A stretch of DNA of 64,000 bases from positions 544,001 through 608,000 of the forward strand of contig CAWJSJ010000005.1 in NCBI GenBank assembly GCA_963845565.1, given 5' to 3'. The DNA comes from an uncultured Methylomirabilota bacterium. Its GTDB lineage: Bacteria; Methylomirabilota; Methylomirabilia; Methylomirabilales; 2-02-FULL-66-22. This document shows, in pieces, positions 32,401 to 35,400 of the stretch; the first letter of the stretch is position 1; every line of letters starts with the position of its first letter. Made by a program: the position numbers.

Positions 32401-35400
32401 CAGATTTCCGGAGACGGCCATCATCCTGATGACGGGCGCCGCGACGGTGGAGTCGGCGGTCAGCGCCCTCAAAGGGGGCGCCTCCGACTACCTCCTGAAA
32501 CCCTTCGGGCTGTCGGAGATCTTTCACGTGGTGCAGCGATGCCTGGAGGAGCATCGGTTGCGGCGCGAGAACGTCGAGCTGTCCGAGGTCAATCGTCGCC
32601 TGAAGGAACTGGATCAGCTCAAGTCCAATCTCCTGTCCGCCGTCAGCCACGAGTTTCGCACGCCGCTCACTATCATGCACGGCTGGCTGGATCTCTTGCT
32701 CACGGGGCAGTTCGGGCCGATCTCCGCCGCGCAGCGGGAGAGTCTGACGGCGGTGCACAAGAGCGCCACGCGTCTCGGGGGCCTCATCGAGAACCTGCTC
32801 GCCTTCGTCGAGTGCGAGCGCGGCGACGGGGTCCGCACCGCGGGAGCGGTGAGCCTGGCGGATCTCCTGCGGGAAGCGGCGGCGGCGCTGGCTGCCGAAT
32901 GTCGCGAGCGGCGGATTGCCCTCTCTGTGGACGTGGACCCCACTCTCCGGATGGTCCAGGGGGACGCCGAGCGTCTCCGCCTGCTGTTCTTCAACCTCCT
33001 GGAGAACGCCGTGAAATTCAACGAATCCGGCGGAACGGTGGCGGTGACCGCCCGGGAAGAGGGTGCCGGCGCCGAGGTGCGGATCACCAACAGCCACGGG
33101 ACGATCCCGCCCGGACAGGTGCAGGGCCTGCTGCAACCGTTCACGCAGGGAGATATGGGACCCAGCCGCCCGGCGCGCGGTCTGGGTCTGGGCCTGGCGG
33201 TGGCCCGGGCGATCGTCCACGCCCACGGGGGAACGCTGCAACTGGAGGGCGGCGAGGAGCAGGGCACCACGGTGTGCGTCCGCTTGCCGCTGGCGCGCGA
33301 AACAGCCTGACGCCTGGTCGAGCGGCAATGGAATACCGACAACCGATACGAGAAATGTAAAACCGATAACCGACAACCGACCATATAATACGGTTGACCG
33401 GTTGTCGTGTCAGTTGTCGGTTTTAGATTGAGCTTGCCACCACAGGGGAGTCTGTCATGCCGGATGCGCCGCGCTTGGTCTTGGTGGACGGAAGCGCATC
33501 CTTGTATCGGGCCTTCCACGCCTTGCCCCCGCTGAGCAATTCCCGCGGGGTGCCGACCCACGCCGTCCTCGGCTTCACCACCATCCTGTTGAAACTGCTC
33601 CGGGAAGAGGAGCCGCAGGCGCTGGCGGTCGTCTTCGACGGGCCCGGCCCGACGGCCCGACACCGCGAGTTCCCCGCCTACAAGGCGCAGCGGCCGCCCA
33701 TGCCCGAGACGCTGGTCAGCCAGATTCCATTCGTGCAGCGGGTGCTCCAGGCGATGCGGGTTCCGGTCCTCATGATCGAGGGTGAAGAGGCGGACGACAT
33801 CCTGGGGACCGTCGCCGTCCAGGCGGCGGCCCAGTCGTATCTGGTGCGGGTGGTCACGGCGGACAAGGACCTGCTGCAGATCGTCGGAGCCCGCATCCTG
33901 GTGCGCGATCCGCTGGCGCCGCGGACCTTCGGGCCGGCCGAGGTGGAGCGACGCTACGGGATCGAGCCGGGGCAGGTGGCGGATTTCCTCGCCCTCATGG
34001 GGGACAGCAGCGACAACATTCCGGGCGTTCCGGGCGTGGGGGAGAAGACCGCCCGGGACCTGCTCCGGCGTTTCGGCAGCCTGGAGACGGTGCTGGCGCG
34101 GGCGGCCGAAGTGGAGCGGCCCAAGCTGCGGGAGGCGCTCCTGGCGCATGTCGAGCAGGCCCGGTTGAGCAAGCGATTGGCGACGATCCGGACGGATCTC
34201 CCGGTGCCCTGGGGGATGGCCGATCTCGCGCGCCGGGAGCCGGATGTGCCGGCCCTGCTGGCGATCTTCCGGGAACTGGAATTCACCCGGTTGGTCCAGC
34301 AGTTCAGCCAACCTGCCTTGGGTGGCATGGCCGATGATCTGTAACCCAAAGACCAATGTAAAACCGAGAACCGACAACTGAAAACCGATCAACGATCTCC
34401 ATTGGTCGGTTGTCGGTTGTCGGTTGTCGGTTTGGAATTGCACGGAGCCGACATGATTCTCGTCGGCCTGACCGGAGGCATCGCCGTCGGGAAGTCCACG
34501 GTGGCCGCCATGTTCGCGGCCCGGGGGGCTGCCGTGGTGGATGCCGATCGGATCAGTCGGAAACTCCAGGAGTCCGGAGCACCCTGCTACGCTGCCATCG
34601 TCGAGGAGTTCGGGAGGGGTATTCTGGACTCGGCCGGGCGTATTGACCGGCGGCGCCTGGGCGAGATCGTGTTCGCCGACCCCTCCCGCCGCGCCGCGCT
34701 CGAAGCCATCATGCATCCCGCCATCTGGGCCGCGTGCGAAGCCGAGATCCGCGCGGCGGCGGCAGCGGGGCGGGCGGTATGCGTGGTCGAGGCGGCCCTG
34801 ATCCTGGAGACGGGACAGCGGAGCCGATTCCAGCGGATCGTCGTGGTGACCGCCCCGACGGACGTCCAGGTCGAGCGCGTCGCGCGCGCCCGCGGCCTCA
34901 CGGAGGAAGAGGCGCGCCAGCGACTGGCGGCGCAGTGGGCGAACGCGGACAAGGCGTGCCAGGCCGATTACGTCATCGACAACGGCGGAGATTTGGCGGC
35001 GACCGACCGCCAGGTCGAGACCGTGTATTCCGCTTTACTCTGCATCGGGGACGCCCCCGCCACCTAGTCCAGGGTCGCGAAGCCGCTGAGCCTGGGACGC
35101 TGACCCTCGCGCTTCAGCTCATTCCCCGGTTAAGAACTGCGAGTCGCGAGGCGCGATTTCCCGAGGCAGACGCTCGGGAATTTGCGGCCGCTCATCGCGC
35201 GACTTGGCGGGGCTCACCAAAAAAGGTGGTGTCGGAATACTAGACACTTTCATGCATGTTCGGGATTCGCCGGGCAACGTTTTCAAGACGTTGACGCTTG
35301 GTACGGTCCGTGCTCCTGATTTCCCTGGCGGGCCATACTCTTCACGCCATCCCGTGCAATGCGGTCGCGGTGTTCAGTCGGCGCTCTTCGCGGCGTGAAG

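What a model noticed while it worked through the whole genome (the two positions that open the first line are those of the whole stretch)
33457..34344. DNA polymerase I has lost its polymerase half; a family-B polymerase stands in, in four families of Methylomirabilales
The polA locus (dnaJ-rsmE-kinase-polA-coaE) encodes only the 295-aa 5'-3' exonuclease (g04657), and this 5.4-Mb genome has no family-A polymerase. Within the order a family-B polymerase with intact proofreading and polymerase motifs (g02924, C2:1961919-1964174) is kept in the Pol I-less families and missing from those with full Pol I. In one family it lies directly behind the exonuclease, in the place of the Klenow part.
Evidence so far: PF00476 over 66 order genomes: own family 0 of 21 (incl. 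a closed genome), f3 1 of 15, f5 1 of 6, f6 0 of 2, f7 0 of 1, against f2 20 of 20 and f4 1 of 1. The two stray hits are weak (E 1e-44, 1e-38); the one inspected lies off the locus. g02924 orthologue: 17 of 20, 14 of 15, 6 of 6, 2 of 2, against 0 of 21 in f2+f4. The exonuclease is in 23 of 23 genomes and, in the Pol I-less genomes examined, ends at the same helix where full Pol I continues. Exo-PolB-coaE in G014 and G047; exo-PolB adjacent in the other four f5 genomes. DIE, DxxSLYP and DTDG motifs are conserved in 25 homologues.
(Added by a program. Inside this text positions count along the whole contig: contig position 544,001 is position 1 of the stretch shown here. "Call 12" and the like, gene names such as g00115 and contig names such as C1 are that model's own, and its searches are not shown. 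The text may have been shortened before it was handed on; [...] marks where a part breaks off. The agent that wrote the report below was given it as the finding of a first reader that could run no searches.)

Follow-up and report, generated by a model that had tools for sequence, protein, structure and literature searches.

The report
Family-B polymerase replaces lost Pol I
Some uncultured bacteria have kept only the primer-removing nuclease of DNA polymerase I and appear to use a little-studied family-B polymerase for the DNA-filling step, a division of labour known from archaea and eukaryotes, and a similar swap is seen in a second, unrelated bacterial group.

Summary
Confirmed and extended. 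Window 33457-34344 encodes only the 5'-3' exonuclease of Pol I, followed by coaE, and the genome has no family-A polymerase. In the order, 45 of 66 genomes lack host Pol I. Of these, 40 carry an intact G3 family-B polymerase; 0 of 21 Pol I genomes do. Pol I was truncated at least twice (AU p 0.007). In one family polB sits in the Klenow slot, with a GTGA overlap in 5 of 5 inspected. New: an order of Binatia (another phylum) repeats the pattern. There, 18 of 20 Pol I-less genomes keep G3, including a closed one, against 40 of 75 with Pol I. In one Pol I-bearing group G3's polymerase site is dead while its proofreading site is intact (8 of 8). Limits: a large outgroup family keeps both enzymes, DinB is also enriched, and function is inferred. 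I found no report of this pairing in my paper searches; earlier scan notes saw G3 elsewhere without a Pol I link.

The parts
33457..34344 (+). Stand-alone 5'-3' exonuclease/flap endonuclease (N-terminal domain of Pol I), 295 aa. Acidic active-site set D11, D61, E111, D113, D114, D136, D138, D183, D186 is present.
   Evidence: PF02739 1.5e-52, PF01367 1.2e-34. The acidic columns are invariant or nearly so in 33 stand-alone homologues; numbering transferred from that alignment. The roles of the residues are recalled.
34309..34320 (+). C-terminal Q-x-x-L tail (QPAL) after the last helix; possible degenerate beta-clamp motif (lead only)
   Evidence: Q-x-x-[LMF] in 32 of 34 stand-alone exonucleases of the order, but also in 2 of 8 full Pol I linkers inspected
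34345..34452 (+). 108-nt gap where the Klenow part lies in Pol I-bearing relatives and where polB lies in family f4; holds a dispersed palindromic repeat (34363-34417)
34453..35067 (+). coaE, dephospho-CoA kinase; downstream marker of the polA locus
   Evidence: PF01121 5.5e-53; same order in Pol I-bearing G045 and G050
32198..33310 (+). Receiver-histidine kinase gene upstream of the exonuclease; also upstream of full polA in G045 and G066
   Evidence: PF00072, PF00512, PF02518
31398..32210 (+). rsmE, 16S rRNA methyltransferase; upstream marker
   Evidence: PF04452 1.9e-42
28591..31384 (+). hrcA-grpE-dnaJ, head of the same-strand gene run (names from my reading of the translations, not scanned)
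   Evidence: ORFs; promoter-like TTGACA-17-TATAGT at 28508-28536
33335..33421 (.). Second copy of the palindromic repeat, just upstream of the exonuclease
   Evidence: 11 copies genome-wide by one pattern, 0 in one shuffle

Best explanation
These bacteria split the Pol I job between two proteins. The stand-alone exonuclease at the old polA locus removes RNA primers and flaps. The G3 family-B polymerase (G000:C2:1961919-1964174, outside the window), which proofreads, fills the short gaps in Okazaki-fragment maturation and excision repair before ligation. G3 was already present in the ancestor, overlapped with the Klenow part, and made its loss tolerable. Lineages then kept either Pol I or exonuclease plus G3, and some kept both. 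Shown: the gene contents, motifs, gene order and repeated origin. Inferred: enzyme activity, the gap-filling role, essentiality and any physical contact.
For: (1) Order: G3 in 40 of 45 Pol I-less genomes and 0 of 21 Pol I genomes. Closed genomes show both states: G015 has no Pol I, G050 has no G3. (2) The 'neither' genomes look unassembled there: G027, G004, G009, G305 and G475 also lack polB's usual neighbour gene, and G005 has only weak paralogues of it. In contrast, Pol I-bearing G452, G450 and G477 keep both flanking genes with polB cleanly gone, and closed G050 keeps tldD-pmbA without it. (3) A single Pol I-less clade is rejected (AU p 0.010 and 0.007). (4) In f4 polB fills the Klenow slot: exonuclease stop and probable polB start overlap as GTGA in 5 of 5, and coaE follows after 3 nt in 4 of 4. 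(5) Second phylum, order of G251 (Binatia): 18 of 20 Pol I-less genomes with a stand-alone exonuclease have G3, against 40 of 75 with Pol I. Among carriers of that exonuclease it is 18 of 20 against 4 of 14. G297 is a single 4.46-Mb contig in this state. (6) All six exonuclease and polymerase motifs match in 31 of 32 and 14 of 15 G3 proteins from Pol I-less genomes, but only 10 of 19 from Pol I-bearing genomes of that Binatia order. In 8 of 8 sampled members of one Pol I-bearing group, motif C reads DAGG or DAAG and motif B is lost while the three exonuclease motifs are intact. The one Pol I of that group inspected lacks the proofreading acids. (7) PolX is not differential: 38/45 against 16/21. 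(8) The model of a G3 from f4 has a complete family-B fold (pLDDT 76; TM about 0.7 to archaeal PolB).
Against: Family f9 keeps both enzymes (152/159 and 147/159), and so do the 2 Binataceae-type genomes tested, so G3 is not merely a Pol I substitute. DinB is also enriched in Pol I-less genomes (34/45 against 6/21), so G3's absence from f7 may be part of a general loss of accessory polymerases. G000 also has DnaE1, DnaE2, DinB and a PolX with its acidic triad. Kin are not independent: on the Binatia exonuclease tree only 4 independent pairs exist, never in the opposite direction but not significant (median p 0.5). Adjacency occurs in f4 only, among 117 polB loci screened plus the f4 regions. 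No exonuclease-G3 fusion was found among 158 homologues. G012 (Pol I-less) has decayed proofreading motifs. The one f3 genome (85% complete) has neither polymerase. Tenericutes and some Verrucomicrobia live with a solo exonuclease and no Pol I (PMC12926913, section 23); Tenericutes lacking PolB is recalled.
Confidence: 0.7

Rival explanations
1. Pol III (DnaE1), helped by PolX or DinB, fills the gaps, as presumed for other Pol I-less bacteria. G3 is a general repair or restart polymerase whose pattern reflects independent gains and losses of accessory genes.
For: DnaE1, PolX and DinB are present in G000. DinB 34/45 against 6/21. Solo exonucleases suffice in other Pol I-less lineages (PMC12926913, sections 15 and 23, passages read). 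G3 coexists with Pol I in 147 of 159 f9 genomes.
Against: It does not explain polB moving into the Klenow slot with a GTGA overlap, the same association in a second phylum, or the loss of G3's polymerase site where a full Pol I is present. DinB is missing from f5 (0/2) and PolX from 5 of 15 f2 genomes.
Confidence: 0.2
2. G3's main job is proofreading or accurate repair synthesis that complements a non-proofreading Pol I. Pol I-less lineages keep it for that repair role only (excision-repair patches), while replication gaps are closed by Pol III.
For: In one Binatia group G3 keeps only its 3'-5' exonuclease beside a Pol I lacking proofreading acids. The Binataceae-type Pol I also lacks them.
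Against: f7 has a Pol I without proofreading acids and yet no G3. Polymerase motifs stay intact in nearly all Pol I-less genomes.
Confidence: 0.08
3. Assembly or binning artefact: the Klenow part was lost from draft genomes.
For: Most genomes are metagenome bins; G000 shows frameshifts in dnaE genes.
Against: Exonuclease and coaE are contiguous across four families. Closed G015 and G297 give the same result. Outside the order PF00476 is found in 177 of 185 genomes of the phylum.
Confidence: 0.02

Closest known systems
Bacterial PolB group G3 (EpsilonN-like clade; Kazlauskas et al. 2020, PMC7544198; Timinskas et al. 2026, PMC12926913)
   Same: [quoted passage not shown]
   Different: Described as experimentally uncharacterised and as carrying a clamp motif; no link to Pol I loss in the sections and passages read. 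Here the C-terminal clamp motif is absent by pattern in the Pol I-less lineages.
Pol I-less bacteria with a solo FEN-like 5'-3' exonuclease (Tenericutes, part of Verrucomicrobia; PMC12926913)
   Same: No Pol I orthologue; a stand-alone 5'-3' exonuclease is kept.
   Different: No substitute polymerase was proposed in the passages read. Here the genomes are up to 7 Mb, the exonuclease sits at the polA locus, and a family-B enzyme co-varies with it. The survey's genome list holds no Methylomirabilota by name (file cut).
Archaeal and eukaryotic Okazaki maturation: FEN1 plus family-B polymerase on PCNA (general scheme recalled; PMC13136892 seen as a search listing only)
   Same: A separate flap nuclease and a proofreading family-B polymerase; closest solved structures are archaeal PolBs.
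   Different: The nuclease is the bacterial Pol I domain, not FEN1; the clamp is beta; G3 is a different PolB clade. An analogy of function, not membership.
E. coli Pol II (group G1)
   Same: Bacterial family-B polymerase with proofreading.
   Different: Far below the Pol II model cut-offs (100 bits against 570); Pol II is SOS-inducible and accessory (PMC12926913, introduction passage), and E. coli keeps Pol I.

Membership tests
DNA polymerase I (PolA1) | N-terminal FEN-like 5'-3' exonuclease | tested here: met
DNA polymerase I (PolA1) | Fused 3'-5' exonuclease-like and family-A polymerase domains | tested here: not met
   Stop after 295 aa; no PF00476 in the genome
DNA polymerase I (PolA1) | Orthologous locus (upstream of coaE) and descent from polA | tested here: met
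   Same neighbours as full polA in G045 and G050; the exonuclease tree leaves it in an open fork with the order's full Pol I domains
Xni/ExoIX or other solo exonuclease families | Score above the curated cut-off | tested here: not met
   Xni 166 bits against 261; solo 5'-3' exonuclease models 144-211 bits against 305-434
PolB group G3 | Conserved glutamate in motif C | tested here: met
   E526 before DTDG, invariant in 31 aligned proteins; criterion from PMC7544198 section 17
PolB group G3 | Closest relatives are named G3 members | tested here: met
   Top phage hits are Salinibacter phages, 37% identity over 97%; Nostoc and Anabaena phages also hit
PolB group G3 | Intact 3'-5' exonuclease and polymerase sites | tested here: met
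PolB group G3 | Beta-clamp binding motif | tested here: not met
   No C-terminal match in 0 of 33 order proteins. This is a derived trait or a common state: only 26 of 101 near-full-length representatives match. It does not define the clade.
PolB group G3 | Placement in the published EpsilonN-like tree | not tested
   The paper's labelled reference set was not rebuilt here
E. coli Pol II (G1) | ExoII motif GWN; NCBIfam cut-off | tested here: not met
   Motif reads GHN; criterion from PMC7544198 section 16 passage
PolB2/G2 mutasome polymerase | Lost exonuclease motifs, single aspartate in motif C | tested here: not met
   Not met by this protein; a separate G2-type paralogue exists in relatives
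Archaeo-eukaryotic FEN1-PolB-clamp maturation system | Nuclease and polymerase act together at primer junctions | not testable with these tools
   Needs biochemistry; the complex predictor was not available

The most novel reading that the evidence does not exclude
At least three times, in two phyla, bacteria converged on an archaeal/eukaryotic-style primer-replacement system. In it, G3 PolB is the essential Okazaki-maturation polymerase and works as a two-part 'Pol I' with the freed exonuclease. In Methylomirabilales the clamp contact has moved from the polymerase tail to the exonuclease tail. When a foreign Pol I arrives, G3 is deleted or reduced to a proofreader acting in trans.
Probability: 0.35. 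Interest if true: 0.92.

Novelty: new variant of a known kind. Interest (0 to 1): 0.82.

Why it matters
Pol I orthologues are in about 96% of surveyed bacteria, and bacterial family-B polymerases are described as non-essential accessories; G3, the second largest group, has no known function (PMC12926913). This finding gives G3 a specific, testable job and names free-living bacteria with large genomes in which a family-B enzyme may do a core replication task. It also offers a natural experiment on which polymerase closes Okazaki gaps when Pol I is absent. G3 is related to the catalytic half of eukaryotic Pol epsilon (PMC7544198), so a bacterial nuclease-plus-PolB system bears on how family-A and family-B enzymes replace one another.

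Tried and rejected
Search for a natural exonuclease-G3 fusion: none among 8 long homologues and 150 representatives; the search was not designed for proteins near 1,040 aa beyond those representatives, so this is weak. A full IQ-TREE bootstrap timed out and was replaced by FastTree and quick trees. LexA-box scan upstream of polB, recA, dinB and imuB with six recalled patterns: nothing found, uninformative because the phylum's box is unknown. Rate test PolB/RpoBC: median 2.05 in 55 Pol I-less pairs against 2.83 in 6 Pol I pairs; weak and non-independent, not used as support. G249 (f12, 73% complete) has G3 and no PF00476 but also no exonuclease, so it was not counted as a loss. Five Binatia genomes without Pol I (G329, G444, G453, G464 with no exonuclease hit; G413 with a broken polA-type piece) were left out of the strict count; all five have a G3 homologue, giving 23 of 25 if included. 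G434 was counted as Pol I-bearing on a contig-edge fragment. G014 was dropped from the exonuclease-tail count (frameshift) and G207 from the PolB-tail count (contig end). Verrucomicrobia could not be tested: no genome handle was available. The supplement of PMC12926913 is held cut (genome list and C-family sheet only), so its A- and B-family tables, which could show a G3/Pol I pattern, were not seen. Paper searches showed no report of G3 replacing Pol I; the library lacks most subscription papers.

Full report
Observation. Window 33457-34344 encodes 295 aa that match only the two 5'-3' exonuclease domains of Pol I. The gene lies in the run dnaJ-rsmE-kinase-exonuclease-coaE, 108 nt before coaE. 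Pol I-bearing relatives have full polA between similar neighbours (G045, G050), so this is polA cut after its first domain. The genome has no family-A polymerase by three searches. It has one family-B polymerase at C2:1961919-1964174, plus DnaE1, DnaE2, DinB and PolX.

Distribution in the order. Of 66 genomes, 21 (f6, f7) have host Pol I. The other 45 do not; two stray hits are off-locus, phage-type by my reading. The PolB orthologue is in 40 of the 45 and 0 of the 21; one f7 genome has a 65-residue fragment beside tRNA genes. The exonuclease is in 63 of 66. For four of the five genomes with neither enzyme, polB's usual neighbour gene is missing too or found only as weak paralogues, which points to unassembled regions. 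The fifth (f3, 85% complete) has no known polB neighbour to test. Elsewhere in the phylum Pol I is in 177 of 185 genomes. PolB is in 147 of 159 of f9 and in f12 and f13, but in 0 of 24 of f8, f10 and f11. At family level the states are both, Pol I only, or PolB only.

How often. Trees of RpoB, RpoC, EF-G and EF-Tu group f1+f3 and f2+f4 (support 99) and leave f5 apart. With a mixture model the Pol I-bearing f7 nests with f5 and f1+f3 (97). A single Pol I-less clade is rejected (p 0.010 and 0.007; quick trees, 20 and 16 of 32 rows). So there were at least two truncations, if f7's polA at the native locus is native.

Gene order. In f4 the order is kinase-exonuclease-polB-coaE-rho (5 genomes examined; adjacency in all 6). 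The exonuclease stop overlaps the probable polB start as GTGA in 5 of 5, and coaE follows after 3 nt in 4 of 4. One of the five, G041, is unpublished. Among 117 polB loci screened, adjacency occurred only in f4.

The polymerase. It belongs to group G3: glutamate in motif C, GHN rather than GWN in ExoII, and Salinibacter phages as best phage hits. All six catalytic motifs match in 31 of 32 order proteins; G012 has decayed proofreading motifs. The f4 protein's model folds like archaeal PolB.

A second phylum. Close G3 relatives occur in Binatia. A class-wide sample has Pol I in 144 of 151 genomes. In the order of G251, 20 of 100 genomes lack Pol I and carry a stand-alone exonuclease; five more lack Pol I but were set aside. 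G3 is in 18 of the 20 and in 40 of the 75 with Pol I. The two exceptions also lack polB's neighbour gene. G297, one 4.46-Mb contig, has exonuclease and G3 and no Pol I. The route differs from Methylomirabilales. The solo exonuclease is sister to the exonuclease of Binataceae-type Pol I (98/97). The order's full Pol I is a separate long-branched clade, 37-40% identical to the Binataceae-type enzyme, and scores best against PDB 6vde (recalled as mycobacterial). It looks foreign, though the order of events is not fixed. Pol I-bearing G452, G450 (unpublished) and G477 show clean syntenic deletion of polB. In a Pol I-bearing group with a divergent G3, 8 of 8 sampled (of about 25) have lost motifs B and C but keep all three exonuclease motifs. 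The one Pol I of that group inspected lacks the proofreading acids. The PolB tree keeps Binatia and Methylomirabilota apart (FastTree, 104 rows), so the two cases are independent. G465 (unpublished) is among the 20, and G439 and G450 are among the 14 carriers of both exonuclease and Pol I.

Clamp motif. A C-terminal QLSLF-like motif matched 21 of 28 f9 proteins and 42 of 49 Binataceae-type proteins (Pol I status tested in only 2 of the 49). It matched 0 of 33 and 0 of 17 from Pol I-less genomes, 0 of 8 in the divergent group and 3 of 13 other Pol I-bearing members of that order. By eye, f5, G441 and G012 have partial look-alikes. Only 26 of 101 distant representatives match, so absence is not rare. 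The stand-alone exonucleases of Methylomirabilales end in Q-x-x-[LMF] in 32 of 34, as do 2 of 8 full Pol I linkers. These are leads: a clamp-free, distributive G3 would suit short gaps (inference from recalled Pol I behaviour).

Against. f9 keeps both enzymes, so G3 has its own role. DinB is also commoner without Pol I (34/45 against 6/21), whereas PolX is not (38/45 against 16/21). Naive Fisher tests overstate; the independent-pairs test has 4 pairs and is not significant. No fusion protein was found, and physical contact is untested.

Mechanism. Most likely (0.7) the exonuclease clips primers and flaps and G3 fills and proofreads the gap. The main rival (0.2) is that Pol III with PolX or DinB fills gaps and G3 is an unrelated repair enzyme.

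What is known. PMC12926913 (abstract, sections 18 and 23, passages, supplement part 1 and a search of the cut file) reports solo exonucleases in Pol I-less Tenericutes and Verrucomicrobia and calls G3 uncharacterised. It does not name Methylomirabilota or Binatia in its main text. PMC7544198 (section 17, passages, supplement searches) defines G3. PMC12448304 (passages) added nothing. Seven searches showed no report of the pairing. Verdict: real, a new variant built from known parts, interest 0.82.

Noticed in passing
window 20911-20970, 24460-24517, 24691-24741, 33335-33421, 34363-34417: Dispersed intergenic palindromic repeat with heptamer-like arms; 11 copies genome-wide by one strict pattern, 5 in this window, 0 in one shuffle. 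It flanks the exonuclease on both sides, and a similar element lies before dinB. Relatives have similar or other repeat types in the same gap.
   Followed up: partly
L304-L311 (Binatia order, e.g. G415, G423): G3 PolB with a dead polymerase site and intact 3'-5' exonuclease motifs in 8 of 8 sampled, beside a Pol I lacking proofreading acids: a candidate proofreader acting in trans.
   Followed up: partly
L262:6812-9487, L267:6393-9086: The full Pol I of that Binatia order looks horizontally acquired: long branch, best solved relative 6vde, varied gene neighbours.
   Followed up: partly
L080:2986-3216 (G062, Pol I-bearing): C-terminal 65-residue fragment of G3, 72-78% identical to the G000 protein, next to tRNA genes; remnant or transferred piece.
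   Followed up: partly
L084:2136-4490, L338:553-2757: Second family-B gene of G2/PolB2 type in many order genomes, split or frameshifted in G015; not found in G000.
   Followed up: no
L081:1030-3879, L082:1-1758: Phage-type family-A polymerases with a long N-terminal extension that I read as uracil-DNA-glycosylase-like, in G021 and G038.
   Followed up: partly
L246, L255, L257, L259: Solo exonucleases of four Pol I-bearing, G3-less Binatia genomes end in a canonical clamp-like motif, unlike those of Pol I-less relatives.
   Followed up: no
L222:16-2322: 769-aa divergent Pol I-like protein in G253 with exonuclease-like and decayed polymerase parts; weak PF00476 match.
   Followed up: no
G000:C4:117248-120692 and C2:1132566-1135768: dnaE1 and dnaE2 read across frameshifts in this assembly; probably sequencing errors.
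   Followed up: no
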